A stretch of 47,428 nucleotides of DNA from a virus (taxonomy: Duplodnaviria; Heunggongvirae; Uroviricota; Caudoviricetes). The notes below the pieces were generated by a model. The model was not told where the DNA came from. It searched no databases and saw only the letters and a list, made by a program, of their open reading frames with translations. This document shows, one piece after another, positions 10,950-44,641 of the stretch. Positions within the stretch are counted from its first letter, which is position 1, and every line of letters begins with the position of its first letter. A program made the translations under genes and the position numbers. The stretch lies in IMG/VR virus record IMGVR_UViG_2574180238_000003, one strand, 5' to 3'.

Positions 10950-11159
10950 AAACGGTTTGCGGGGAAAGAAGAGTTAAGTAGAATTGCTGCGGGTGCTTGA
11001 GGCTGTTTGCCTCGGGCATGCCGCCGTAAGGCAGACAGAGAAAAGCCCCAGTTAACATTACGCGTCTTGCAGGACGCTTAACATTAATCTGAGGCCCAAT
11101 CTATGCTTCACAAACGTAGGTTAGCCTCTTACGTGCCGAAAGGCAAGGAGAAGCAGGCT

Positions 11160-11315
11160 ATGAAGCAGCAAAAGGCGATGTTAATCGCCCTGATCGTCAT
11201 CTGTTTAACCGTCATAGTGACGGCACTGGTAACGAGGAAAGACCTCTGCGAGGTACGAATCCGAACCGGCCAGACGGAGGTTGCTGTCTTCGTAGACTAC
11301 GAATCTGAGAAGTAA
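11160..11315 (+). CDS. hokD: Hok/Gef-family type I toxin (HokD/RelF-like)
   Basis: MKQQKAMLIALIVICLTVIVTALVTRKDLCEVRIRTGQTEVAVF... matches the Hok family signature and recalled RelF/HokD; GC hairpin ggcgagggagaaatccctcgcc (11325-11346) just downstream, typical of hok mRNA 3' ends. Confidence 0.85.
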   Translation: MKQQKAMLIALIVICLTVIVTALVTRKDLCEVRIRTGQTEVAVFVDYESEK

Positions 11316-14307: not shown

Positions 14308-15366
14308 ATGTTTAATACTGTAAAAATATCCAGTTGTGAGTTGATCAACGCTGACTGCCTGGAATTTATCCGGTCGTTACCCGAAAATTCTGTTGACCTG
14401 ATAGTCACGGCCCCGCCGTACTTTAAAGTGAAGCCTGAGGGCTGGGATAACCAGTGGAAGGGCGACGATGATTACCTGAAATGGCTGGACCAGTGTCTGG
14501 CGCAGTTCTGGCGGGTGCTGAAACCTGCCGGAAGTCTTTACCTGTTCTGTGGCCATCGCCTGGCATCTGACATTGAAATCATGATGCGAGAACGCTTCAG
14601 TGTGCTGAACCATATTATCTGGGCGAAGCCGTCCGGACGCTGGAACGGGTGCAACAAGGAAAGCCTGAGGGCGTATTTCCCCGCCACAGAGCGCATTCTG
14701 TTCGCGGAACATTATCAGGGGCCGTATCGTCCGAAAGATGCCGGGTATGAGGCGAAGGGCAGGGCACTGAAACAGCATGTGATGGCACCGCTGATTGCTT
14801 ACTTTCGTGATGCGCGTGCTGCCCTGGGGATAACGGCAAAACAGATTGCTGATGCCACAGGAAAGAAAAACATGGTGTCGCACTGGTTCAGTGCCAGTCA
14901 GTGGCAGTTACCGAACGAAAGCGATTATCTGAAATTACAGGTGCTGTTTGCCCGGGTGGCAGAAGAGAAGCATCAGCGGGGTGAACTGGAAAAGCCCCAC
15001 CACCAGCTGCTGGAGACGTATACTTCACTGAACCGGCAGTATGCGGAACTGCAGAGTGAATATAAGCATCTGCGGCGGTATTTTGGCGTGACGGCGCAGG
15101 TGCCGTACACGGATGTGTGGACGCATAAACCGGTGCAGTACTATCCCGGGAAACATCCGTGCGAAAAACCGGCAGAAATGCTGCAGCAGATAATCAGCGC
15201 GAGCAGTCGTCCGGGTGACCTGGTTGCAGATTTTTTCATGGGGTCGGGTTCGACAGTCAAAGCCGCGATGGCGCTGGGGCGGCGTGCAACTGGCGTTGAG
15301 CTGGGGACTGAACGTTTTGAGCAGACGGTCAGAGAAGTTCAGGATTTAGTCAGTCAGAACGGATGA
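14308..15366 (+). CDS. Orphan DNA methyltransferase (beta-class amino-MTase)
   Basis: 352-aa ORF; catalytic TAPPY motif near the N-terminus and AdoMet-binding FMGSGST near the C-terminus (circularly permuted order typical of beta-class MTases); no adjacent restriction enzyme. Confidence 0.85.
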   Translation: MFNTVKISSCELINADCLEFIRSLPENSVDLIVTAPPYFKVKPEGWDNQWKGDDDYLKWLDQCLAQFWRVLKPAGSLYLFCGHRLASDIEIMMRERFSVLNHIIWAKPSGRWNGCNKESLRAYFPATERILFAEHYQGPYRPKDAGYEAKGRALKQHVMAPLIAYFRDARAALGITAKQIADATGKKNMVSHWFSASQWQLPNESDYLKLQVLFARVAEEKHQRGELEKPHHQLLETYTSLNRQYAELQSEYKHLRRYFGVTAQVPYTDVWTHKPVQYYPGKHPCEKPAEMLQQIISASSRPGDLVADFFMGSGSTVKAAMALGRRATGVELGTERFEQTVREVQDLVSQNG

Positions 15367-15406: not shown

Positions 15407-15482
15407 GGCCCTTTAGCTCAGTGGTGAGAGCGAGCGACTCATAATCGCCAGGTCGCTGGTTCAAATCCAGCAAGGGCCACCA
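15407..15482 (+). tRNA. tRNA with CAU anticodon (Ile2/lysidine-type, ileZ-like; Met not excluded)
   Basis: 76-nt cloverleaf: acceptor GGCCCTT/AAGGGCC, D-arm GCTC..GAGC, anticodon loop CTCATAA, T-loop GGTTCAAATCC, 3' ACCA encoded; close to recalled E. coli ileX. Confidence 0.85.
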
Positions 15483-15491
15483 TATCACATA

Positions 15492-15568
15492 CCGCCATTA
15501 GCTCATCGGGATAGAGCGCCAGCCTTCGAAGCTGGCTGCGCGGGGTTCGAGTCCTCGATGGCGGTCCA
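15492..15568 (+). tRNA. tRNA-Arg (anticodon UCG)
   Basis: 77-nt cloverleaf: acceptor CCGCCAT/ATGGCGG, anticodon stem CCAGC/GCTGG with loop CTTCGAA, T-arm CGGGG-TTCGAGT-CCTCG, 3' TCCA. Confidence 0.8.
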
Positions 15569-15846: not shown

Positions 15847-16275
15847 ATGTATTGCCGTGCTGTACCGGTTCTTGTTTTGATATTAGCCAGTCTGACAACT
15901 GGCTGCACAAAAGATGTATCGACAAATAATCATGATGCTTCTCTGTATCACTCAGATAAATTAATAAAGTCGCAAAATTTGAGCTCATCGGAACGTACCC
16001 CTGATGCCAGTGAAGAAATCCGGCAGTATGCCATTCAGGTCAGGAAAGCCATAGAAGAACAGTTAAAGGATGCGAGTAAGTATTCAGGAAAAGAGTGTTC
16101 ACTGAGAATGTATATGGCCCCGAATGGTCTTCTGCTACAGGTTAAAAGAGAAAGCGGTGATCCCGATTTATGTCGTGAAGCGATGAATGCAGTAAAGAAT
16201 GCTGATATACCATCACCACCGTCTTCAGGAGTATATAAAGCATTTAGAAATGGCGTGCTGGATTTTAAACTCTGA
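15847..16275 (+). CDS. Lipoprotein with TolA C-terminal domain (domain III)-like region
   Basis: Signal peptide plus lipobox LTTGC; C-terminal ~80 aa (IQVRKAIEEQLKDASKYSGKECSLRMYMAPNGLLLQVKRESGDPDLCREAMNAVKNADIPSPPSSGVYKAFRNGVLDFKL) align to recalled E. coli TolA domain III including the conserved Cys pair; AT-rich upstream flank. Confidence 0.7.
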   Translation: MYCRAVPVLVLILASLTTGCTKDVSTNNHDASLYHSDKLIKSQNLSSSERTPDASEEIRQYAIQVRKAIEEQLKDASKYSGKECSLRMYMAPNGLLLQVKRESGDPDLCREAMNAVKNADIPSPPSSGVYKAFRNGVLDFKL

Positions 16276-16334: not shown

Positions 16335-16590
16335 TGTGAAGTGTTAAATCCCTCACAATTCAGTAAGTTGACAGTTGCCTGTCAGACTGAGCATTTGTTA
16401 AAAAAATTTCGCATGGTGAATCCCCCTGTGCGGAGGGGCGACTGGTGAACGGTATGATCTCTTTGATGATCGTAAGCGAGAATACGCGGGTTTGGTGTCA
16501 CCGGGCTGAACTCACCGGGAGGCACCCGGCACCATGCTCATGGTGATACAGAAATGCGGCTTCAGCCCCTCTCCGGAGGGGCTTTCTTAT
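16335..16590 (+). repeat. Structured repeat unit 1 of 4 (candidate sRNA)
   Basis: Conserved blocks ttaaatccctcacaattcag, gcatggtgaatccccctgtgcggaggggc, caccgggaggcacccggcaccatgc, and terminator hairpin gcccctctccggaggggc with T-run. Confidence 0.6.
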
Positions 16591-16746
16591 GGACAAAAAA
16601 AGCCCGCGCTGGGAGACGCGGGCGGCAAGGAATAAACAATAAAACGTGAAGTAATACTTCAACTGGCGAATAATACCCGACAGTAATCACTCTGCGCAAT
16701 AGCGTGGCCTTTTTCGAATTGCGGGCTGTAGTCTCCCTTCTGCCGG

Positions 16747-16970: not shown

Positions 16971-17696
16971 ATGGATGTTGCCTGCTCTGTGGTCCTGATT
17001 CGCTATCCGATAGATATTTTTCTTGAAAAAGAAAAAGTTTCACTCGATGCCGGAAGTGTTATGCTTGTTGCCAGAAATATAAGAGGGCTTTTCTGTGCTT
17101 ATGCCGACAGAGTGAAAATGGCAGATATAAGTAACAGCGTCGTCAATCAGTATCTGGAAAGGGAGTGTGAACTGACGGAGTATACACCGACAAAAATGCC
17201 TCTTTATTTGATGTCTGATATTTACAATACGGAACTGGCGGAGGCTTTAATAACCCAGCATAGTGAATCCAGTGATACTTTGAAGGATTTCTCTGTTATA
17301 ACCGCATTTTCATGTATCTCCTTATTTGCAACAGACAGACGTCTGCCATTATTTTTGTCCGGTGCTGTAAATAATATCAGCTGTAAAGTAAGGGCTATAA
17401 TTCAGACCGACATATCGGCAGGCTGGATGCTTGGTGTGATTGCATTACAATTGCATATGAGCGAAAGCTTGTTGAAGCGAAAACTTAAGGATGAAGGTTA
17501 TAGCTTTAGTCGGTTGTTGCTGGAGGAGCGAATGCGTGTTGCTGTTAATCTTGTATGTTTCCAGCGAGAGTGTGGACAAGCGATAGCGGAAAAATGTGGT
17601 TACTCAAGTAAGTCCTACTTCATTTCTGTATTTCACCAGTATTATGGTGCACCACCTGAGAGCTATGCATATTTGCAGAAAGCAGACGTTATCTGA
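16971..17696 (+). CDS. AraC-family transcriptional regulator
   Basis: 241-aa ORF; C-terminal AraC-type dual HTH (GWMLGVIALQLHMSESLLKRKLKDEGYSFSRLLLEERMRVAVNLV...KCGYSSKSYFISVFHQYYGAPPESY); AT-rich gene in the accessory block. Confidence 0.8.
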   Translation: MDVACSVVLIRYPIDIFLEKEKVSLDAGSVMLVARNIRGLFCAYADRVKMADISNSVVNQYLERECELTEYTPTKMPLYLMSDIYNTELAEALITQHSESSDTLKDFSVITAFSCISLFATDRRLPLFLSGAVNNISCKVRAIIQTDISAGWMLGVIALQLHMSESLLKRKLKDEGYSFSRLLLEERMRVAVNLVCFQRECGQAIAEKCGYSSKSYFISVFHQYYGAPPESYAYLQKADVI

Positions 17697-18304: not shown

Positions 18305-18548
18305 TCATGGAAATGTTAAATGACTCACAATTCGGTTGATGGGCTATTGTCTGATCGATGGAAGTCTTGTAAAAACGAGCCAGCATAGTGAATCCCCCTG
18401 TGCGGAGGGGCGTCTGACATGGTCTCCATAGCGATGGTCACAATACGCAGATTCAGTAGTCAGGCTGAATCTACCGGGAGGCACCCGGCACTATGCTGCT
18501 TATGGTGTATACATAGCGATCGGCCCCTCTCCGGAGGGGCTTTTTTTG
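18305..18548 (+). repeat. Structured repeat unit 2 of 4
   Basis: Same block order as unit 1; long-range helix gcatagtg (18383-18390) / cactatgc (18489-18496) carries a compensatory base-pair change relative to unit 1; terminator gcccctctccggaggggc plus T7. Confidence 0.6.
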
Positions 18549-18564
18549 TGCGGGAAAAGGCTGT

Positions 18565-18806
18565 GTTGTTAAGTGTTAAATTCCTCACAGTTCAGATGGT
18601 TGATGCTTGCCTGTCTGAGGGGGCGTTGTTAAAAAAGTTCTGCATGGTGAATCCCCCTGAGCGGAGGGGCATATCAGCGCAGGTGTTTCTACTCTATCCT
18701 TTCTGTGCGGGTTCAGGTGCTGATACTGAACTCATCGGGAGGCACCCGGCATCATGCATATGGTTAACAGACACGTAGCGAAGCCCCTCTCCGGAGGGGC
18801 TTTTTT
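18565..18806 (+). repeat. Structured repeat unit 3 of 4
   Basis: Same blocks; helix gcatggtg / catcatgc (G-U wobble); terminator gcccctctccggaggggc plus T6. Confidence 0.6.
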
Positions 18807-18824
18807 ATGCAGGGAAAAGGCTGT

Positions 18825-19062
18825 GTTGTGAAATGTTAAATTCCTCACAATTCATGAGGTTGATGATTGTCTGATTGATGAGGAGTTTGTTAAAAAAAAC
18901 GGGCATGGTGAATCCCCCTGTGCGGAGGGGTGATATCGTATCATTTCCTGTGTGGCCGACTGATATCACGGACATTTGTTCACCGGGAGGCACCCGGCAC
19001 CATGCAGTATACAGAGATTAGGCATACATCCAGGCTCCTCATCGCAGGAGCCTTTTTACATG
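18825..19062 (+). repeat. Structured repeat unit 4 of 4
   Basis: Same blocks; helix gcatggtg / caccatgc; different terminator sequence (ggctcctcatcgcaggagcc plus T5) in the same position. Confidence 0.6.
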
Positions 19063-19291
19063 TAAAAAAAAAAACGCTCCTGGGAAGAGCGGTTGGCAAG
19101 GAAGCAAGGAATAAATAACAAAACGTGAAGTAATTTATTCAGCACCCTAATAATACCTTAGAGTAATCACATTGCGCAACTGTAAGGGCGTATTTCTTTT
19201 TTGCGGGCTGTTTTTCTGTGTGACTTTTGTGTTTCCGGAGGTCAGCCCGTGCCTTCTCTGACTCAGAACATTATCCCGGCCGGGAGGATTC

Positions 19292-21256
19292 ATGGCATTT
19301 AAACACTACGATGTGGTCAGGGCGGCATCGCCGTCAGACCTTGCTGAACGACTGACACAAAAACTGAAGGAGGGCTGGCAGCCATTTGGCAGTCCGGTGG
19401 CCATCACGCCTTATACCCTGATGCAGGCCATTGCGGCGGAAGGTGATGTCACCACACCAGTGGCGGTGACCGGTAATGAGGGTAAGGCGGTGGCTGTCAG
19501 TGCCACCAGCGACCCGGAGTATTACTTTGTTGTGGTTCTGGCAGGGCAGTCAAATGGCATGTCGTATGGTGAAGGTCTTCCGCTGCCGGAGACATATGAC
19601 CGTCCGGACCCGCGCATTAAGCAGCTGGCGCGCCGCAGTACGGTGACACCGGGCGGTGCAGCATGCAAATATAACGACATCATTCCGGCGGACCATTGTC
19701 TGCATGATGTGCAGGACATGAGCCGCCTTAACCATCCGAAAGCGGACCTGTCAAAGGGGCAGTACGGTACCGTGGGGCAGGGGCTGCATATCGCCAAAAA
19801 ACTGCTGCCGTTTATACCGGCGAATGCGGGTATTCTGCTGGTTCCGTGCTGTCGTGGGGGTTCAGCGTTCACCACCGGAGCTGATGGCACATACAGTGAC
19901 GCTGGCGGTGCCTCGGAGAATTCAGCGCGCTGGGGTGTGGACAAGCCGCTGTATAAGGACCTTATCGGTCGAACAAAAGCAGCACTGAAGAAGAACCCGA
20001 AAAATGTGCTGTTTGCCGTGGTGTGGATGCAGGGGGAATTTGATTTTGACGGCACGCCCGGAAATCACGCAGCACAGTTTGGTGCGCTGGTTGATAAATT
20101 CCGTGCAGACCTGGCGGATATGGCAGGCCAGTGCGTCAGTGGCTCTGCTGGCGGTGTTCCCTGGATATGCGGGGACACGACGTATTTCTGGAAGCAGAAG
20201 AACGAATCCACGTACCAGACGGTGTACGGCAGCTATAAAAACAAAACGGAAAAGAATATCCATTTCGTACCGTTCATGACGGATGAGAACGGGGTGAATG
20301 TGCCGACGAACAAACCGGAAGAAGACCCGGACATTCCGGGTATCGGGTATTACGGTTCGAAATGGCGTGACAGCTCAGCCCCCTGGACGTCACAGGACAG
20401 GGCGAGCCATTTCAGCACCTGGGCACGCCGGGGGATTATTTCCGACCGTCTGGCAACGGCGATTCTGGTGCACGCCGGGAGAACCGCTGAATTCATTACC
20501 GGAAAACAGCCTGATATGGTGAAGCCCACCGTACCTTCCGGTGAAGGTCCGGAGAGAGAGGCGGAAGCCCCGGTCAGTAACCGAACCCTGATGAGTCTGC
20601 TGGCATCCGGCGAAGACCTGGCATCACAGGGCTGGCGCTATTATCACAAACCGGCGGGCGGGGACAGTGTTAACAAAAACATTGCTGAAGCGGTGGTCAG
20701 TGATGCGGGGGCTACGGGAGGTAAGGCTCTGCAACTGAACAAACCGGAAAACCACATCTGGTTTCTGGAGCATGATGCAGCCGGACAGGGTGCGGAGTTA
20801 CTGAAGAAGGGCGGACGTGTGAGCGTACGGTTTAAGTTGCCGGGTTCACTGGTGCCGAATCAGTTTGCCCTGGGCATTTACTGGCAGTTGTCGTCCCTGC
20901 CGGAGGGGGTGACGCTGTCAGGAGAAGGTAACGATATGCTGATGTCTTTCTTCCTGCAGACGGATACGACGAACCTGAACGCGATGCATCACAGGAAGCC
21001 GAATGCGAAGCTGGATACATTCGGGGTCTTTGATAACGGATGGCACACGCTGGCTTTTGAGTTTGCCGGAAACAACAGCATTCAGGTGACACCAGTACTG
21101 GATGAGAAACGGGGAGCGGCGTTCACACTGGTGAAGTCACCGGCATCGGGGGCGGCGGACAAACTGCAACTGACCGATATATCAAAATCGGCGACGTATA
21201 CGCTGCTGATTGACAGCATTGCGGTGGAAGTGAACAGCACAGACACTGCGGCATGA
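19292..21256 (+). CDS. NanS-p-type sialate O-acetylesterase (SGNH/SASA hydrolase)
   Basis: 654-aa ORF; GQSN catalytic motif (VVVLAGQSNGMSYGEG); location between Q/tRNAs and the lysis cassette as in Stx-type lambdoid phages. Confidence 0.75.
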   Translation: MAFKHYDVVRAASPSDLAERLTQKLKEGWQPFGSPVAITPYTLMQAIAAEGDVTTPVAVTGNEGKAVAVSATSDPEYYFVVVLAGQSNGMSYGEGLPLPETYDRPDPRIKQLARRSTVTPGGAACKYNDIIPADHCLHDVQDMSRLNHPKADLSKGQYGTVGQGLHIAKKLLPFIPANAGILLVPCCRGGSAFTTGADGTYSDAGGASENSARWGVDKPLYKDLIGRTKAALKKNPKNVLFAVVWMQGEFDFDGTPGNHAAQFGALVDKFRADLADMAGQCVSGSAGGVPWICGDTTYFWKQKNESTYQTVYGSYKNKTEKNIHFVPFMTDENGVNVPTNKPEEDPDIPGIGYYGSKWRDSSAPWTSQDRASHFSTWARRGIISDRLATAILVHAGRTAEFITGKQPDMVKPTVPSGEGPEREAEAPVSNRTLMSLLASGEDLASQGWRYYHKPAGGDSVNKNIAEAVVSDAGATGGKALQLNKPENHIWFLEHDAAGQGAELLKKGGRVSVRFKLPGSLVPNQFALGIYWQLSSLPEGVTLSGEGNDMLMSFFLQTDTTNLNAMHHRKPNAKLDTFGVFDNGWHTLAFEFAGNNSIQVTPVLDEKRGAAFTLVKSPASGAADKLQLTDISKSATYTLLIDSIAVEVNSTDTAA

Positions 21257-34171: not shown

Positions 34172-34921
34172 ATGGCAACACCAAATCCCCTGGAGCCGGT
34201 AAAAGGTGCCGGTACCACTCTGTGGGTTTACAACGGCAAGGCTGATGCTTATGCAAACCCGTTGTCAGACGATGACTGGCAGCGACTGGCGAAGGTGAAG
34301 GATCTGACCCCCGGCGAGATGACGGCAGAATCCTACGATGATAACTATCTGGATGATGAGGATGCTGACTGGGTATCCACCGGGCAGGGGCAGAAATCTG
34401 CCGGTGACACCAGTTTTACGCTGGCCTGGAAGCCGGGTGAGAAAGGGCAGCGCGATTTGATTGCCTGGTTTGACAGCAGTGAGACACGGGCCTACAAAAT
34501 CCGTTTCCCGAACGGCACGGTGGATGTGTTCCGTGGCTGGGTGAGTGCTATTGGTAAAGCGGTGACCGCCAAAGAGGTGATCACCCGTACCGTGAAGATC
34601 ACCAATATCGGCCGTCCGTCGCTGGCGGAAGATCAGGGGGACATCACACCGGTCACCGGTATTACCGTGACGCCACCAACGGGCAATGTGGCAAAAGGTC
34701 AGAATATCACCCTGACCGTGGCTGTTCAGCCGGAAGGGGCGACGGATAAAACATTCCGTGCCACGTCGGCGAATCAGAATTTCGCCACCATTACCGTGAA
34801 GGGGAACACGATCACGGTGAAAGGTGTTGCGGCAGGGAAAGCACAGATCCCTGTGGTTACCGGCAATGGTGAGTTTGCGGCAGTGGCGGAAATTACCGTC
34901 ACGGATGGTGCAACGGGTTAA
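34172..34921 (+). CDS. V: Major tail protein V (with C-terminal Ig-like domain)
   Basis: 249 aa; C-terminal Big_2-like repeat region ([31 protein letters not shown]); position before G/GT. Confidence 0.85.
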
Positions 34922-39427: not shown

Positions 39428-40171
39428 ATGACACAGACTGAATCAGCGATTCTGGCGCATGCCCGGCGGTGTGCGCCAGCGGAGTCGTGCGGCTTCGTGA
39501 TAAGCACCCCGGAGGGCGAACGGTACCAGCCCTGCGTGAATATCTCCGCAGAGCCGGAGGCGTATTTTCGTATTGCACCGGAAGACTGGCTGCAGGCACA
39601 GATGCAGGGGGAGATTGTGGCGCTGGTCCACAGTCATCCCGGTGGACTGCCCTGGCTGAGCGAGGCGGACCGGCGGCTGCAGATAAAGAGTGCCCTGCCC
39701 TGGTGGCTGGTCTGCCGGGGTGACATTCACCGGTTCCGCTGTGTGCCGCACCTGACCGGACGGCGCTTTGAACACGGTGTGACGGACTGTTACACCCTGT
39801 TCCGGGATGCTTACCATCTGGCGGGGATAACGCTGCCGGATTTTGTGCGTGAGGATGACTGGTGGCGCAACGGTCAGAACCTGTACCTGGACAACCTGGC
39901 GGAAAACGGCTTTTACCGGGTGTCTCCGTCCCGTGCACAGGCAGGCGATATTCTGCTGTGCTGCTTTGGCGCATCGGTGCCGAATCATGCCGCCATTTAC
40001 TGTGGCAACGGTGAACTGCTTCACCATATACCTGAACAACTGAGTAAACGGGAGAGGTATTCAGAGAAATGGCAACGACGAACGCATTCTGTCTGGCGTC
40101 ACCGCCACTGGTCCGCATCTGCCTTCACGGGGATTTACAACGATTTGGTCGCCGCATCAGCCTGTATGTGA
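39428..40171 (+). CDS. K: Tail tip assembly protein K (NlpC/P60 plus MPN/JAB-like)
   Basis: Start ATG 39428 (MTQTESAILAHARRCAPAESCGFV...); HSHP motif and a downstream Cys/His region; matches recalled lambda K. Confidence 0.85.
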   Translation: MTQTESAILAHARRCAPAESCGFVISTPEGERYQPCVNISAEPEAYFRIAPEDWLQAQMQGEIVALVHSHPGGLPWLSEADRRLQIKSALPWWLVCRGDIHRFRCVPHLTGRRFEHGVTDCYTLFRDAYHLAGITLPDFVREDDWWRNGQNLYLDNLAENGFYRVSPSRAQAGDILLCCFGASVPNHAAIYCGNGELLHHIPEQLSKRERYSEKWQRRTHSVWRHRHWSASAFTGIYNDLVAASACM

Positions 40172-40749
40172 ACACGGCAGCGGAGGCCATCCGTGCCCTG
40201 TCGCTGCAGGTGCCGGGATTCCGCTGTCAGATGAACGAAGGCTGGTATCAGATACGTATTGCCGGTGAGGATACCGCGCCGGAGGCGGTGTATGCCCGTC
40301 TTCATGAACCGTTGAGCGGGAGGGCCGTGATTCATATTGTACCGAGGCTGGCAGGGGCCGGGGGAAATGGTGTTTTTCAGGTGGTGCTGGGGGCAGCAGC
40401 CATCGTGGGCTCTTTCTTCACCGCCGGCGCAACGATGGCGTTGTGGGGCGCAGCCCTGAGTGCCGGAGGGCTGACTGCCACCACGATGCTGTTCTCACTG
40501 GGTGCCAGCATGATACTGGGTGGTGTGGCCCAGATGCTGGCCCCGAAGGCAAAGACGCCGGAATACAAAAGTACGGATAACGGTAAACAGAACACGTATT
40601 TTTCGTCACTGGACAACATGATTGCCCAGGGTAACCCGATGCCGGTGCCTTACGGTGAAATGCTGGTTGGTTCACGACGGATATCCCAGGACATCAGCAC
40701 CCGTGATGAGGGCGGAGACGGGAAAGTGGTGGTTATCGGACGGGGATAA
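40069..40749 (+). CDS. I: Tail assembly protein I
   Basis: 226-aa ORF overlapping the K 3' end in the lambda I position; hydrophobic Gly/Ala-rich middle. Confidence 0.8.
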   Translation: MATTNAFCLASPPLVRICLHGDLQRFGRRISLYVNTAAEAIRALSLQVPGFRCQMNEGWYQIRIAGEDTAPEAVYARLHEPLSGRAVIHIVPRLAGAGGNGVFQVVLGAAAIVGSFFTAGATMALWGAALSAGGLTATTMLFSLGASMILGGVAQMLAPKAKTPEYKSTDNGKQNTYFSSLDNMIAQGNPMPVPYGEMLVGSRRISQDISTRDEGGDGKVVVIGRG

Positions 40750-41173
40750 AAATAAAAAAATCCCGCAGAGTTAGCGGAGCTGCGGGAAGAGATACGAAGA
40801 TTAACTGTAAGGAGTTATTATTATGTCACAGCAAAAAAAACGGTAACGCAGAGAAATTATAAGCGCCACTGGGATTTTGTGAAAATGTGAAGAATTTCAG
40901 AAATTTTCTGTTGCGGAGCTGAACTAAAAAACGCTCCCGCAATACACCTGGATATTAACGGGAGGAACGAATAGTCACCTTAAGGAGTTGCGATTAATTG
41001 CTTTTATTGACCGCAGGTAATCTACCCATCCGGCAAGGTTTCCTCCACGGGAATTTGCCGGAAATGTGAAGAATTTCAGAAATTTTATTCCGTCATGACA
41101 CAGGCCCCCTCCGGGGTGCCTGTCGTTTTCTGGCATAAACAGATTCAGACATCAGACAGGAGAGGGGGACAGA

Positions 41174-44100
41174 GTGGGTAAAGGGGGCGGCAAGGGGCAC
41201 ACACCGCGTGAGGCGAAGGACAATCTCAAATCAACGCAGATGATGAGCGTGATTGATGCCATTGGTGAGGGACCGGTGGAAGGTCCGGTGAAGGGACTGC
41301 AGAGTATTCTGGTGAACAAAACCCCGCTGACGGACACGGACGGTAATCCTGTGATACACGGTGTGACCGCCGTCTGGCGTGCCGGGGAGCAGGAGCAGAC
41401 ACCGCCGGAAGGCTTTGAGTCCTCCGGGGCGGAAACCGCACTGGGCGTGGAGGTGACGAAGGCAAAGCCGGTGACGCGCACCATCACGTCAGCGAACATT
41501 GACCGTCTGCGGGTCACCTTCGGGGTGCAGTCACTGGTGGAGACCACCTCAAAGGGTGACCGTAACCCCTCTTCTGTCCGCCTGCTGATTCAGCTTGAGC
41601 GTAACGGTAACTGGGTGACGGAGAAGGATATCACCATTAACGGCAAGACTACCTCGCAGTACCTGACGTCGGTGATTCTGAATAATCTCCCTGAGCGCCC
41701 CTTTAACATCCGGATGGTCAGGGAGACGGCGGACAGCACCACGGACCAGCTGCAGAACAGAACGCTGTGGTCGTCATACACCGAAATCATCGATGTGAAA
41801 CAGTGCTACCCGAACACGGCGATTGTGGGGCTGCAGGTGGATGCGGAGCAGTTTGGTGGCCAGCAGCTGACGGTGAACTACCATATCCGTGGTCGCATCA
41901 TCCAGGTGCCGTCAAACTATGACCCGGAAAAACGCACCTACAGCGGTATCTGGGACGGGAGTCTGAAACCGGCATACAGCAATAACCCGGCCTGGTGCCT
42001 GTGGGACATGCTGACCCACCCGCGCTACGGGATGGGAAAACGCCTGGGGGCCGCGGATGTGGACAAGTGGGCACTGTATGCCATCGGGCAGTACTGCGAC
42101 CAGACGGTCCCGGATGGTTTCGGAGGCACAGAGCCGCGGATGACCTTTAATGCGTACCTGTCACAGCAGCGTAAGGTGTGGGATGTCCTGGGGGATTTCT
42201 GCTCGGCGATGCGCTGTATGCCGGTATGGAACGGCCAGACGCTGACGTTCGTTCAGGACCGCCCGTCGGATGTGGTGTGGCCGTACACCAACAGCGATGT
42301 GGTGGTGGATGATAACGGCGTGGGGTTCCGCTACAGCTTCAGTGCCCTGAAGGACCGGCACACGGCGGTGGAGGTGAATTACACTGACCCGCAGAACGGC
42401 TGGCAGACTTCCACGGAACTGGTGGAAGACCCGGACGCCATCCTGCGCTACGGACGCAATCTGCTGAAGATGGATGCGTTTGGCTGTACCAGCCGCGGTC
42501 AGGCCCACCGTGCCGGACTGTGGGTGATAAAGACCGAACTGCTGGAAACGCAGACGGTGGATTTCACGCTCGGGTCACAGGGGCTGCGGCACACACCCGG
42601 TGACATCATTGAAATCTGTGATAACGACTACGCCGGGACCCTGACCGGCGGACGCATCCTGTCCATGGATGCCGCCAGTCGCACCCTGACGCTGGACCGT
42701 GAGGTGACACTGCCGGAGACAGGTACATCGACGGTGAACCTGATTAACGGCAGCGGTAAGCCGGTGCGCGTGGACATCACTGCACACCCCGCCCCTGACC
42801 GGATACAGGTCAGCGTCCTGCCTGATGGCGTGGCAACATACGGTGTGTGGGGACTCTCCCTGCCGTCACTGCGTCGTCGCCTGTTCCGCTGTGTTTCCAT
42901 CCGGGAAAACACGGACGGCACCTTTGCCATCACGGCAGTGCAGCACGTACCGGAAAAAGAAGCCATTGTGGATAACGGAGCCCGCTTTGAGCCGCTGTCC
43001 GGTTCACTGAACAGCGTCATCCCGCCGGCAGTGCAGCACCTCACGGTGGAGGTGAGTGCCTCAGACGGCCAGTATCTGGCGCTGGCGAAATGGGACACGC
43101 CGCGGGTGGTGAAGGGCGTGCGCTTCAGTCTGCGCCTGACCAGTGGCAGTGGTGAAAACAGCCGCCTGGTGACCACCGCCATCACTGCCGACACGGAGCA
43201 CCGTTTCAGTGGCCTGCCTCTGGGGGAATACACCCTGACGGTCAGGGCGATAAACAGCTACGGCCAGCAGGGCGAACCTGCCACCACCACGTTCCGGATT
43301 AACGCCCCGGCAGCACCGGACAGCATTGAGCTGACGCCGGGGTATTATCAGATAACAGCAGTACCGGTGCTGGCGGTGTATGACCCGACGGTACAGTATG
43401 AATTCTGGTTCTCAGAAAAACGCATCACGGACACGGCACAGGTGGAAATCTCTGCCCGTTATCTGGGGACAGGCAGCCAGTGGAGTGTCTCCGGCCCGCA
43501 CATTAAGCCGGGGAGGGATTTCTGGTTTTATGTGCGCAGCGTCAACCTGGTGGGGAAATCTGCGTTTGTGGAAGCCAGTGGCCGGGCGAGCAATGATGCG
43601 GAAGGGTATCTGGACTTTTTCAGAGGAGAAATCGGGAAGACACATCTGGCACAGGGGATGTGGGAGCTGATTGATAACAGCCAGCTTGACGATGAGATGG
43701 CGGAGATGAAGACCACCATCACCGAAACCCGCAATGAAATCACGCAGACGGTCAGTAAAACTCTGGAAGACCAGAGTGCCACCATACAGCAGATACAGCG
43801 GGTGCAGACAGACACAAATAACGACCTGGCTGCGCTGTACATGCTGAAGGTGCAGAAAACAAAAAACGGCATTCCGTATGTTGCCGGTATAGGTGCGGGG
43901 ATTGAGGATGCTGATGGCCAGCCCCTGAGCAATATACTGCTGCAGGCGGACCGTATCGCGATGATTAACCCGGAGAACGGCAACACCACGCCGCTGTTTG
44001 TGGCGCAGGGGAATCAGCTGTTCATGAACGATGTGTTCCTGAAGCGGTTGTTTGCAGTGAGCATCACCTCGTCCGGCAATCCCCCGACGTTCTCCCTGAC

Positions 44101-44641
44101 GCCGGAGGGCAGGCTGACGGCCCGCAATGCGGACATCAGCGGACATATCAGTGCGAACTCGGGCACGCTCAATAATGTCGTGATAGCGGAGAACTGTACG
44201 ATAAATGGCACGCTGAAAGCGGAGAACATTATTGGTGATCTTGTGAAATGTGCAGGGGTGGCTTTTCCGGTGGATGGTAGTTACCTTGCGAACGGTACAC
44301 GAACGCTGACGGTGTATGACGATCACAGCTTTGACCGGCAGATTATAATCCCGCCGATAATCTATGTCGGGTCAAAACAGGAATCCCGCACCAGTAATGA
44401 CATCTGGACAGAGTGCTTCCTGCATGTTGATCAGAACGGACGCCGGATTTATTCAGGCAGGTCAGTGACAGAGCCGGGAATTTTCAGCGGGATCATCGAT
44501 ATGCCAGCCGGTCATGGTCATATCACCCTGAGTTTTACCGTAAGTTCACGACGTCAGAACGGGAGTTTTGGCAGTTCACGTATCAGTAACCTTCAGGCGA
44601 TAGTGGTGAAGAAAAACAGCGCGGGGATCAGTATCCGCTGA
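41174..44641 (+). CDS. J: Central tail fibre / host-specificity protein J
   Basis: 1155 aa, GTG start; N-terminus [21 protein letters not shown]... and long stretches are collinear with recalled lambda J; the extreme C-terminus diverges. Confidence 0.9.

What the first reader, a model, noticed from the sequence alone, without database searches (positions are those of the whole stretch)
40750..41173. Unusual 420-bp structured spacer between tail genes I and J with a 24-bp direct repeat
In lambda, J follows I directly. Here a non-coding spacer contains two copies of aatgtgaagaatttcagaaatttt (40884-40907 and 41063-41086), hairpins (tcccgcag...ctgcggga at about 40767-40792; ttgcggagc...gctcccgcaa at about 40910-40945), and only a 7-codon ORF. 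The repeats look like binding sites for a regulator, or a small RNA or promoter inserted ahead of J.
Basis: seen in the sequence. Interest (0 to 1): 0.45.

Follow-up and report, generated by a model that had tools for sequence, protein, structure and literature searches.

The report
Two tandem prophage small-RNA genes
The odd 424-bp gap between tail genes I and J holds two back-to-back, diverged copies of a known prophage small-RNA gene (PasB/EcOnc22 family) read on the opposite strand, and the 24-bp repeat is the conserved promoter-upstream box of each copy.

Summary
I (40069-40749) and J (41174-44641) are separated by 424 non-coding bp holding an exact 25-bp direct repeat (40883-40907, 41062-41086).

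There is small-RNA content, but on the strand opposite to I and J, and nothing points to a J promoter.

The spacer is two tandem cassettes of one family. Read on the minus strand, each has:
- a conserved box, TGTGA-N6-TCAGA
- a TAnnnT hexamer
- an ~80-90-nt RNA carrying an anti-Shine-Dalgarno CUCCUU
- an intrinsic terminator

The single-cassette 240-bp form of this spacer encodes two known Hfq-dependent sRNAs. These are PasB in EPEC E2348/69 (83 nt) and EcOnc22/23/24 in O157 Sakai.

- **Cassette 1 (40754-40832, minus):** a clear family member, 83-84% identical, 87 bits with a model built without it.
- **Cassette 2 (40926-41012, minus):** a diverged paralogue at 28 bits, missing one conserved upstream hexamer. 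It may be weak or decaying.

In 117 related loci the same junction carries 1, 2, 3 or 4 cassettes. I did not find this array organisation described in the papers I read. The box fits a class I CRP site centred near -61; this is inference, not tested.

A separate tail-sense terminator-like hairpin ahead of J is conserved, and phage lambda has a hairpin in the same position. Its role is unexplained.

The parts
40069..40749 (+). Tail assembly gene I (left boundary of the spacer)
   Evidence: ORF list; Pfam Lambda_tail_I, E 3e-14.
40754..40832 (-). sRNA-1, a PasB/EcOnc22-family small RNA, about 79 nt. Its 5' end is placed by homology; a primary transcript could instead start near 40849. Layout on the RNA: 5' stem 40832-40826 with 40810-40804, CUCCUU in the loop, conserved GUUAAUCUUCG, terminator hairpin 40787-40761, U7 at 40760-40754.
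   Evidence: Model R1, built without this sequence, scores 87.2 bits, E 5e-14, over 40754-40849 (-). 82.7% identical to the PasB unit and 84.4% to the EcOnc22 unit. The scan tool calls the terminator. Fold -17.3 kcal/mol, z -3.35.
40795..40816 (-). Conserved single-stranded core of sRNA-1 (AACUCCUUACAGUUAAUCUUCG), the presumed seed.
   Evidence: AACTCCTT and GTTAATCTTC are the most conserved part of the RNA body across 61 distinct units. The CLASH hybrid reads of EcOnc22/23/24 span the homologous stretch.
40840..40861 (-). Promoter core of cassette 1, with two candidate -10 hexamers: TACCGT (40845-40840, 7-8 nt upstream of the homology-placed 5' end) and TATAAT (40861-40856, paired with TTCACA at 40883-40878).
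   Evidence: The scan tool reports TTCACA-16-TATAAT, 11 of 12 matches, on the minus strand. TAnnnT is conserved in all 61 units at this column, and the 5' ends of PasB and of the CLASH reads lie 6-7 nt after it.
40883..40907 (.). It contains TGTGA-N6-TCAGA at 40886-40901. The centre of the 22-mer is at 40893.5, which is -61.5 from G40832.
   Evidence: Both pentamers are invariant and the N6 varies across 34 distinct box contexts.
40908..40925 (+). Junction between the cassettes: a remnant of the 3' end of an I gene, including its stop codon (ctgttgcggagcTGAact).
   Evidence: In other 2-unit arrays the same junction reads GGCGGGGCTGAAATAAAAAAC. That closely matches the real end of I in Sakai, GGGCGGGGATGAAAATAAAAAAATC.
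40926..41012 (-). sRNA-2, a diverged paralogue of about 87 nt. Seed AACUCCUUAAGGUGACUAUUCG, hairpin 40964-40934 (CUCCCGU..ACGGGAG type), U6 at 40931-40926. Candidate -10 TAGATT at 41024-41019. It lacks the [T/A]AT[A/C]AT and GCGTTAC motifs that all other units have.
   Evidence: R1 scores 28 bits, E 0.003, over 40928-41028 (-). About 80% identical to unit 3 of the 3- and 4-unit arrays, where TATAAT or CATAAT is intact. The fold shows the terminator, but the overall z-score is only -0.52.
41062..41086 (.). Box copy 2. TGTGA-N6-TCAGA at 41065-41080; centre at 41072.5, which is -60.5 from G41012.
41100..41131 (+). Tail-sense hairpin (ACAGGCCCCC / GGGGTGCCTGT) followed by CGTTTTCT. It looks like an intrinsic terminator just upstream of the J leader and is not part of either cassette. 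The window has C at 41106 where all 59 other spacers have A, which breaks one base pair.
   Evidence: Called as a terminator in E2348/69 and in Sakai. Nearly invariant in 39 single-unit spacers, with one compensatory change (CAGGCATCC / GGATGCCTG in L127). Lambda has a hairpin in the same place. Fold; the base difference.
41132..41173 (+). J leader: two copies of the heptad CAGACAT, then the GGAGAGGGGGA Shine-Dalgarno.
   Evidence: The heptad copy number varies from about 2 to 5 among relatives.
41174..44641 (+). Tail tip gene J (right boundary of the spacer)
   Evidence: Seven J-specific Pfam domains.

Best explanation
The I-J spacer is a tandem pair of PasB/EcOnc22-type small-RNA gene cassettes. 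Both are transcribed leftward, antisense to the tail operon.

Each cassette, read on the minus strand, has four parts:
1. A conserved upstream box, AAAATTTCTGA-N6-TCACATTT.
2. A weak sigma-70 core promoter.
3. An RNA of about 80-90 nt with an exposed anti-Shine-Dalgarno CUCCUU and an adjacent conserved stretch.
4. A GC hairpin followed by a U-run.

Shown for homologues, inferred for this window: these RNAs are made from the silent prophage independently of late transcription, are bound and stabilised by Hfq, and base-pair with mRNAs in trans.

The 24/25-bp direct repeat exists because the whole cassette was duplicated by unequal recombination between two phages. The second copy carries about 12-15 nt of an I-gene 3' end.

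Inferred: the box is the binding site of cAMP-CRP acting as a class I activator centred near -61, which would tie sRNA output to carbon status.

Cassette 1 is very likely functional. Cassette 2 may be weakly expressed or decaying.
For: Homology and location:
- PasB is mapped at NC_011601.1 1466343-1466261 (minus), 83 nt, with Northern probe AATCCCGCAGTGATCGCGGAGCT. This lies between the tail assembly gene I and gpJ, on the opposite strand.
- The EcOnc22/23/24 Hfq-CRAC peaks lie in the I-J spacers of Sakai prophages Sp15, Sp14 and Sp11, on the strand opposite to I/J.
- Their CLASH read sequence GCCTGAAAAATAACTCCATAACGTTAATCTTCA is the Sakai-type unit read on that strand.
- Window unit 1 aligns to both homologues (83-84% identity). 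Model R1, built without any window-identical sequence, finds exactly two hits in the spacer, both on the minus strand.
- Across 967 kb of related phage DNA, all 123 R1 hits sit in I-J spacers next to a box.

Expression of homologues:
- EcOnc22 gives a Northern band of about 85 nt and is destabilised without hfq.
- PasB drops by log2 -6.8 and -2.4 in the hfq mutant and has 37 RIL-seq partners.

Anatomy:
- Terminator and promoter calls and folds.
- One terminator-stem change on both sides, CCCGCAG/CTGCGGG to CCCACAG/CTGTGGG, in L013.

Duplication:
- 1, 2, 3 and 4 cassettes in 99, 9, 1 and 8 loci.
- The I-gene remnant at the junction.

Box:
- Invariant pentamers with a variable spacer, at a fixed distance from the hexamers.
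- The centre falls at -61.5 and -60.5 from the homology-placed starts (coordinates).
- PasB is higher in overnight LB than in DMEM.
Against: - There are no expression data for this window or for any 2-unit spacer.
- The 5' ends of PasB and of the CLASH reads could be processing sites. If transcription starts after the TATAAT hexamer instead, the box centre is at about -44.5, which is not a standard CRP position.
- Cassette 2 lacks two motifs found in every other unit, scores only 28 bits, and does not fold better than shuffles (z -0.52). It was also below threshold in the larger search.
- CRP binding is inferred only from a consensus match (9 of 10 core positions). The LB versus DMEM difference could equally reflect growth phase or oxygen.
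- The physiological function of PasB/EcOnc22 is unknown. The CLASH hybrids with yjbJ rest on 1-2 reads.
- The loci were collected by exact match to the box, so conservation of the box in the terminal unit is partly ascertainment. Internal units of arrays were not selected this way and still keep the box.
Confidence: 0.75

Rival explanations
1. The repeats are operators for a DNA-binding regulator, or part of a promoter that drives J (and the genes downstream) independently of the late promoter.
For: The box is the best-conserved DNA in the spacer and resembles a dimeric binding site. It lies upstream of J.
Against: The sigma-70 scan found no promoter-like site on the + strand in 40500-41400, nor in the Sakai and E2348/69 spacers. 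A terminator-like hairpin lies between the last box and J. The box keeps a fixed distance to the minus-strand hexamers and RNA starts, and it is duplicated together with each minus-strand cassette. In E2348/69, J (E2348C_1437) has low read counts in both growth conditions.
Confidence: 0.07
2. A tail-sense small RNA also exists, or exists instead. It would start near the AT-rich hexamer region, carry the conserved box as its seed or Hfq site, and end at the conserved hairpin and U-run ahead of J. That would make the locus a divergent sRNA pair.
For: In single-unit spacers, the stretch from the box through ATTCCGTCATGAC to the hairpin and T-run is the most conserved part. The tool calls the hairpin an intrinsic terminator on the tail-sense strand. 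The conserved [T/A]AT[A/C]AT hexamer reads as nATTAT, which is -10-like, on the + strand. Two outward-facing terminators flanking a central AT-rich region is the layout of a divergent pair.
Against: No Hfq-CRAC peak is listed on that strand at these loci. I found no RIL-seq entry for the I-J intergenic region on that strand in the held files, some of which are truncated. There is no convincing -35. Internal units of arrays have the box but no hairpin. Lambda has the hairpin without a cassette, which suggests the hairpin belongs to the late mRNA rather than to an sRNA.
Confidence: 0.12
3. The main role is in cis. The antisense RNAs, or the act of transcribing against the late operon, modulate the I-J part of the late transcript. 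This could work by pairing with it (processing, altered I:J ratio) or by transcriptional collision. Trans targets would be secondary.
For: The RNAs are perfectly complementary to the late mRNA across the I-J junction (direct from sequence). The family is found only at this junction in 967 kb of related phage DNA. The position is conserved in every relative examined.
Against: PasB and EcOnc22 accumulate in lysogens, where late genes are almost silent (for I and J counts). They are Hfq-bound and ligate to chromosomal mRNAs. The complementary region ends more than 160 nt upstream of the J ribosome-binding site. The seeds diversify between cassettes while the junction function would stay the same.
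Confidence: 0.12
4. Neutral recombination scar. The duplication is a by-product of mosaic recombination between prophages. At least the second cassette is a non-functional remnant.
For: An I-gene remnant lies at the junction. Cassette 2 lacks the two conserved upstream motifs and scores poorly. The identical unit 2 is found behind three different unit-1 types, as expected for recent shuffling. Only 33 of 5426 genomes carry the full 424-bp form.
Against: Cassette 2 keeps the box, a TAnnnT hexamer at the right column, the CUCCUU core and a hairpin with a U6 tail. Its body type recurs in the 3- and 4-unit arrays with intact TATAAT or CATAAT. Arrays of up to four cassettes, each complete, argue for retention.
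Confidence: 0.3

Closest known systems
PasB (pathogenicity-associated sRNA B) of EPEC O127:H6 E2348/69, prophage PP6
   Same: Same genomic slot: between tail assembly gene I and gpJ, on the opposite strand. Same architecture of box, hexamers, CUCCUU/GUUAAUCUUC core and CCCGCAG..CUGCGGG-U7 terminator. The unit is 82.7% identical to window cassette 1.
   Different: PasB is described as a single gene in a 240-bp spacer, whereas the window has two cassettes in 424 bp. The 5' part and loop sequences differ. Cassette 2 is only 62% identical. PasB expression and Hfq dependence were measured; nothing was measured for the window.
EcOnc22 / EcOnc23 / EcOnc24 of E. coli O157:H7 Sakai (prophages Sp15, Sp14, Sp11)
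   Same: Same slot and strand. The unit is 84.4% identical to cassette 1. They are Hfq-crosslinked, give a Northern band of about 85 nt and are destabilised without hfq. The CLASH reads cover the homologous seed.
   Different: One cassette per prophage. The core reads CUCCAUAACGUUAAUCUUCA, against CUCCUUACAGUUAAUCUUCG in the window, so targets may differ. No function has been assigned in the literature I read.
Tandemly duplicated sRNA genes (OmrA/OmrB in E. coli, PrrF1/PrrF2 in Pseudomonas; from my own knowledge, and cited in the Pas preprint)
   Same: Adjacent paralogous sRNA genes, each with its own promoter and terminator, with conserved scaffolds and diverged parts.
   Different: Those are chromosomal, two copies, and each pair answers to one known regulator. 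Here the copies sit inside a phage tail operon, run antisense to it, and number from 1 to 4 between related phages.
AgvB/AsxR-type prophage anti-sRNAs
   Same: Short Hfq-binding RNAs encoded in lambdoid prophages of pathogenic E. coli, with conserved 3' parts and variable 5' parts.
   Different: Those are 51-60 nt and lie downstream of PR' in the moron region, convergent with another sRNA. Rfam AgvB and AsxR give no match in the spacer.
Class I CRP-dependent promoters (lac type, site at -61.5; from my own knowledge)
   Same: A 22-bp site with TGTGA-N6-TCAxA, centred at -61.5 and -60.5 from the homology-placed starts, with a weak -35.
   Different: Binding and dependence are untested. One core mismatch (TCAGA for TCACA). 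The true start site is not established.

Membership tests
PasB/EcOnc22 sRNA family | Located in the spacer between tail genes I and J of a lambdoid prophage, on the strand opposite to them | tested here: met
   Pfam identifies I and J. Both R1 hits are on the minus strand inside the spacer. PasB and EcOnc22-24 occupy the same arrangement.
PasB/EcOnc22 sRNA family | Sequence homology to the mapped RNAs | tested here: met
   Cassette 1: 82.7% to PasB and 84.4% to EcOnc22; 87.2 bits, E 5e-14. Cassette 2 is weaker: 61-62% to both, 28 bits, E 0.003, and about 80% to unit 3 of the longer arrays.
PasB/EcOnc22 sRNA family | Rho-independent terminator at the 3' end (GC hairpin plus U-run) | tested here: met
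   Cassette 1: called by the scan tool, hairpin 40761-40787 plus U7. Cassette 2: hairpin 40934-40964 plus U6 in the fold, but outside the scan tool's loop limit.
PasB/EcOnc22 sRNA family | Own promoter upstream (box, hexamers at fixed spacing) | tested here: inconclusive
   Cassette 1 has every conserved element. Cassette 2 keeps the box and TAGATT but lacks [T/A]AT[A/C]AT and GCGTTAC. Which hexamer is the real -10 is not settled.
PasB/EcOnc22 sRNA family | Expressed as a discrete RNA of about 80-90 nt that binds Hfq and depends on it | not testable with these tools
   Shown only for the homologues.
Any Rfam 15 family | Match at or near the gathering score | tested here: not met
   No gathering-level hit in the spacer. 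At E up to 10 there are only chance-level matches far below threshold. PasB/EcOnc22 appears to have no Rfam model.
AgvB/AsxR anti-sRNA class | 51-60 nt RNA with the conserved 42-nt 3' region, downstream of PR' | tested here: not met
   No AgvB or AsxR hit in the spacer, whereas the same search finds AgvB in Sakai Sp10. Location and length also differ.
Class I CRP-activated promoter | TGTGA-N6-TCACA-like site | tested here: met
   TGTGA-N6-TCAGA matches 9 of 10 core positions, with an AAA flank. Both pentamers are invariant and the spacer is variable in 34 contexts. Only two occurrences in the window, against 0.06 expected.
Class I CRP-activated promoter | Site centred near -61.5 (or -71.5, -82.5 and so on) from the transcription start | tested here: inconclusive
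   The centre is at -61.5 and -60.5 if the start is where the 5' ends of PasB and the CLASH reads map. It is at -44.5 if the TATAAT hexamer is the -10.
Class I CRP-activated promoter | CRP binding and crp/cAMP dependence | not testable with these tools
   Only circumstantial: PasB is higher in overnight LB than in DMEM.

The most novel reading that the evidence does not exclude
The I-J junction of these lambdoid prophages is an expandable array site for small-RNA cassettes. Unequal recombination stacks one to four complete PasB-type genes. Each would be under the same CRP-type box but carry a different seed. A single prophage could then deliver a small, carbon-status-controlled set of distinct riboregulators to its host, and phages could swap them as modules.
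Probability: 0.3. Interest if true: 0.6.

Novelty: new variant of a known kind. Interest (0 to 1): 0.42.

Why it matters
PasB and EcOnc22-24 are among the more abundant Hfq-bound prophage RNAs in EPEC and EHEC, yet their function and regulation are unknown.

This work shows three things about the locus:
- It has a fixed modular anatomy.
- It carries a testable regulatory box.
- It occurs as arrays of one to four cassettes with different seeds.

That gives concrete experiments: a crp dependence test, and seed-specific target searches. It also suggests that copy-number surveys based on strict BLAST of the E2348/69 sequence undercount the family.

It further explains a recurrent unannotated gap in prophage annotations. 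RefSeq lists no feature there in 24 of the 25 top-scoring hits.

Tried and rejected
- **Rfam, gathering and permissive thresholds.** Nothing real in the spacer.
- **AgvB, AsxR and Esr41.** Considered from memory as candidates and rejected: no Rfam hit, and a different location.
- **HnrS (EcOnc10-12).** Considered because it is a multicopy late-region sRNA. Rejected: its sequence (CCCAATCAGTAC.., L005 about 571-637) lies elsewhere and is unrelated.
- **Taking the Table S2 coordinates at face value.** This placed EcOnc22 on the J-proximal hairpin. That was wrong because the table uses NC_002695.1. I calibrated the shift with AgvB1 and HnrS (+137 to +146). The CLASH read sequence then settled it at +135.
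- **Small proteins.** The 7-codon ORF and the 38- and 53-codon minus-strand ORFs were not pursued. The aligned spacers differ by many 1-, 2- and 8-nt indels, so no frame is conserved.
- **RNAalifold on all unit types together.** It recovered only 3 pairs, because the two terminator types misalign. The model is therefore essentially a sequence profile.
- **A + strand promoter reading of the box as class I or II CRP.** Rejected by hand: no -10-like hexamer at the required distances.
- **Palindrome AATTTC-A-GAAATT inside the box.** Its left half varies between units, so it is not the conserved feature.
Full report
**1. What is in the sequence**

The window carries a lambda-type tail module. The ORF at 40069-40749 (+) matches Pfam Lambda_tail_I. 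The ORF at 41174-44641 (+, GTG start) has seven J-specific domains. Between them lie 424 bp with no ORF longer than 53 codons on either strand.

The repeat finder reports a 42-nt direct pair, 40866-40907 and 41045-41086, at 86% identity. It also reports a second pair, 40789-40823 and 40962-40996, at 71% identity, with the same spacing of about 175-179 bp. So a whole unit is duplicated, not just a 24-mer. The exact part of the repeat is 25 nt: AAATGTGAAGAATTTCAGAAATTTT, at 40883-40907 and 41062-41086.

The scan tool calls it an intrinsic terminator on the minus strand, followed by T7. The same scan finds a strong sigma-70-like promoter on the minus strand, TTCACA-16-TATAAT at 40883 to 40856, and none on the plus strand.

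**2. Relatives**

Most relatives hold one unit. The 424-bp spacer matches 778 of 5426 complete E. coli genomes, with a median of 3 and up to 9 places per genome. Only 33 genomes cover at least 80% of it, and RefSeq annotates nothing there in 24 of the 25 top-scoring hits. Among phage records (VT1-Sakai, BP-4795, 2851, 1717 and many Stx-converting phages), matches cover about 60% of the query in two pieces. That corresponds to a spacer of about 240 bp with a single unit.

**3. The single unit is a known small-RNA gene on the other strand**

Table S6 of the EPEC RIL-seq paper (PMC8550237) maps PasB to NC_011601.1 1466343-1466261 on the minus strand. It is 83 nt, with Northern probe AATCCCGCAGTGATCGCGGAGCT, and lies between E2348C_1436 and E2348C_1437. 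In that genome these two genes are the tail assembly protein I (ending at 1466255) and gpJ (starting at 1466496), both on the plus strand. The probe is the E2348/69 version of the window's 40759-40782 hairpin region.

In O157 Sakai, Table S2 of Tree et al. 2014 (PMC4104026) lists EcOnc22 (Sp15, Northern about 85 nt, destabilised without hfq) and its repeats EcOnc23 (Sp14) and EcOnc24 (Sp11). All three are on the strand opposite to the tail genes. Those coordinates refer to NC_002695.1, whereas the copy I could read is version 2. The three peaks fall in the I-J spacers of the three prophages.

The RNase E-CLASH hybrids of Waters et al. (PMC5286369) give the actual read: GCCTGAAAAATAACTCCATAACGTTAATCTTCA. 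That is the Sakai unit read antisense to I and J, and it fixes the coordinate shift at +135.

An alignment of window unit 1, window unit 2, the three Sakai spacers and the PasB locus shows one shared architecture.

**4. Anatomy of a cassette**

A scan of viral contigs with the box returned 120 loci. From these I extracted 117 I-J spacers, 59 of them distinct, holding 61 distinct units.

Read on the strand opposite to I and J, every unit has, in order:
- AAAAnTCTGA-N6-TCACATTT
- 14 nt, then GTrGC
- a [T/A]AT[A/C]AT hexamer
- GCGTTAC, which contains a TAnnnT hexamer
- a T-run
- a variable stretch
- a conserved core, AACUCCUU..GUUAAUCUUC
- a GC hairpin (mostly CCCGCAG..CUGCGGG), then A and U6-8

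One unit (L013) has CCCACAG..CUGUGGG, a change on both sides of the stem that keeps it paired.

The published PasB 5' end and the 5' ends of the three independent CLASH reads fall in the same alignment column, 6-7 nt after the TAnnnT hexamer. By homology, the window's RNAs are therefore:
- **sRNA-1:** 40832 to 40754, 79 nt.
- **sRNA-2:** 41012 to 40926, 87 nt.

If the TATAAT hexamer is the true -10 and the mapped ends are processing sites, sRNA-1 would instead start near 40849 (95 nt).

sRNA-1 folds into a 5' stem with CUCCUU in its loop, a single-stranded U/A-rich stretch, and the terminator (-17.3 kcal/mol, z -3.35). sRNA-2 forms the terminator, but its overall fold is no better than shuffled sequence (z -0.52).

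**5. Membership test**

I built a covariance model from 27 units, none identical to a window unit. It has only 3 base pairs, so it is essentially a sequence profile. With filters off, it gives three hits in the 47-kb window:
- 40754-40849 (-): 87.2 bits, E 5e-14.
- 40928-41028 (-): 28 bits, E 0.003.
- 16595-16676 (-): a non-significant hit, E 0.7.

Over 100 related loci (967 kb) it gives 123 hits. All are beside a box in an I-J spacer, on the strand opposite to the tail genes.

Unit 1 is 82.7% identical to the PasB unit and 84.4% to the EcOnc22 unit. Unit 2 is 61-62% identical to those, but about 80% identical to unit 3 of the longer arrays.

Unit 2 in the window type lacks the [T/A]AT[A/C]AT and GCGTTAC motifs. 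Its relatives in 3- and 4-unit arrays have them (TATAAT, CATAAT). It does keep TAGATT at the TAnnnT column. I therefore treat cassette 1 as a clear member and cassette 2 as a diverged, possibly weakened paralogue.

**6. Arrays**

Spacer lengths fall into classes:
- 232-260 bp: one box.
- 420-425 and 478 bp: two boxes.
- 715 bp: three boxes.
- 907-929 bp: four boxes.

Per locus the counts are 99, 9, 1 and 8.

In the window type, the junction between units reads ..TTTT|CTGTTGCGGAGCTGAACTAAAAAAC... In sister arrays it reads GGCGGGGCTGAAATAAAAAAC. That is a close copy of the real end of gene I in Sakai, GGGCGGGGATGAAAATAAAAAAATC. So the second cassette arrived with the last 12-15 nt and the stop codon of another phage's I gene, which is the signature of unequal recombination.

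The same unit 2 sits behind three different unit-1 types.

It is probably incidental.

The 2026 preprint on Pas sRNA distribution describes PasB as embedded in a structural operon with little sequence variation. It attributes multiple Pas copies to repeated acquisition rather than tandem duplication. It does not mention tandem PasB arrays, a promoter or CRP. Within the papers I could read, the array organisation is therefore not described.

**7. What the repeat is**

The box lies at a fixed distance from the hexamers in every unit. Across 34 distinct contexts the two pentamers TGTGA and TCAGA never change, while four of the six spacer bases do. Internal units of arrays were not selected by my search pattern and still keep the box.

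The 22-mer AAATGTGAAGAATTTCAGAAAT matches the CRP consensus AAATGTGATCTAGATCACATTT (from my own knowledge) at the whole left half and at four of five positions of the right pentamer. Its centre is at -61.5 for cassette 1 and -60.5 for cassette 2, measured from the homology-placed starts. That is the class I position. It would be at -44.5 relative to a start after TATAAT, which is not a standard position.

PasB is more abundant in overnight static LB than in exponential DMEM. In the same data the CRP-repressed Spot 42 behaves the opposite way. This fits CRP activation but also fits growth-phase or oxygen effects.

I rate 'promoter-upstream regulatory element of each cassette' as likely, and 'CRP site' as a reasonable but untested inference.

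**8. The J-proximal hairpin is a separate element**

After the last box, all spacers share ATTCCGTCATGAC, then the hairpin CAGGCACCC-TCCG-GGGTGCCTG, then TTGTTTTT. The scan tool calls this an intrinsic terminator on the tail-sense strand in both E2348/69 and Sakai.

One variant has a compensatory pair (CAGGCATCC / GGATGCCTG). One has a G-U pair and one has a mismatch.

The window has C at 41106 where all 59 other spacers have A, including the IMG/VR copy of this very contig. This breaks a pair and is why one search did not list the hairpin.

Lambda's 60-bp spacer also holds a tail-sense hairpin with a T-rich tail (ACCGCC-TGCG-GGCGGT, then TTTTGTCATTT) just upstream of J. The hairpin therefore seems to belong to the late transcript or the junction itself, not to the sRNA cassettes.

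Its role is not explained. Candidates are insulation of J from upstream transcription in lysogens, an mRNA stability element, or the 3' end of a tail-sense RNA.

**9. Mechanism, with steps marked**

- **Shown here:** homology, strand, cassette anatomy, duplication, arrays.
- **Shown for homologues by others:** transcription in lysogens, Hfq binding and dependence, ligation to mRNAs. PasB has 37 RIL-seq partners. EcOnc22/23 form hybrids with yjbJ, on very few reads.
- **Inferred for this window:** both cassettes are transcribed leftward from their own promoters. The RNAs act in trans through the exposed CUCCUU-containing core. The box recruits CRP.

Because the RNAs are also perfectly complementary to the late I-J transcript, a cis effect during lytic growth cannot be excluded.

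**10. Verdict**

The element is a new variant of a known kind: a two-cassette array of the PasB/EcOnc22 prophage sRNA family. Interest is moderate. The family is published, but its regulation, its function, its diversity of seeds and its tandem-array organisation are open. The box gives a direct experiment.

Noticed in passing
window 16382-16594 (+) and 18354-19063 (+): Four Rfam STnc100 matches (119-172 bits). Three of them are head-to-tail at 18354-18549, 18614-18812 and 18874-19063. This is a second tandem array of a prophage sRNA-like element in the same window.
   Followed up: no
window 16595-16676 (-): A terminator-bearing stretch directly abutting the first STnc100 copy on the opposite strand. 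It is a weak, non-significant hit of my model (E 0.7). In Sakai Sp10 the same position next to STnc100 holds the anti-sRNA AgvB. It may be an AgvB/AsxR-class RNA below Rfam threshold.
   Followed up: partly
window 10991-11165 (+): Rfam sok antitoxin RNA match at 115.8 bits, implying a hok/sok-type toxin-antitoxin locus in the prophage.
   Followed up: no
window 15407-15479 and 15492-15565 (+): Two tRNA genes just downstream of a DNA methylase ORF (14308-15366).
   Followed up: no
window 15847-16275, 16971-17696, 19292-21256 (+): Cargo genes interleaved with the STnc100 copies: a TolA C-terminal-like protein, an AraC-family regulator and a NanS-type sialate O-acetylesterase (DUF1737/SASA/DUF6645). 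No Shiga toxin genes lie between them.
   Followed up: partly
window 34837 and 41106: The window differs from the IMG/VR copy of the same 47428-bp contig (IMGVR_UViG_2606217173_000002, locus L044) at two positions in the 13968 bases compared: G versus T at 34837 and C versus A at 41106. The second breaks a base pair in the conserved hairpin ahead of J.
   Followed up: partly
window 41140-41160; loci L015, L019, L062, L075, L076, L078, L103: The J leader contains a heptanucleotide repeat (CAGACAT) whose copy number varies among relatives, from about 2 as in the window to about 5. It lies immediately upstream of the J Shine-Dalgarno.
   Followed up: no
L128 (phage lambda NC_001416.1) 946-1005: Lambda's own 60-bp I-J spacer holds a tail-sense hairpin with a T-rich tail (ACCGCC-TGCG-GGCGGT, then TTTTGTCATTT), preceded by AAAATGT..TGTGAA. 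This faintly resembles the box. I know of no described function for it.
   Followed up: no
L056 (715-bp spacer); L034, L057, L061, L062, L076, L105, L115, L117 (907-929-bp spacers): In 3- and 4-cassette arrays the linkers between units are 60-70 nt long and end in ..GGGGATAA or ..GGGATAA, followed by the A-run. They look like longer remnants of I-gene 3' ends from more distant phages.
   Followed up: partly
NC_002695.1 versus NC_002695.2 (Sakai): Published EcOnc coordinates (version 1) are shifted by about +135 to +146 bases relative to the current RefSeq record between 1.9 and 2.9 Mb. Reading them on version 2 puts EcOnc22 on the wrong hairpin.
   Followed up: yes
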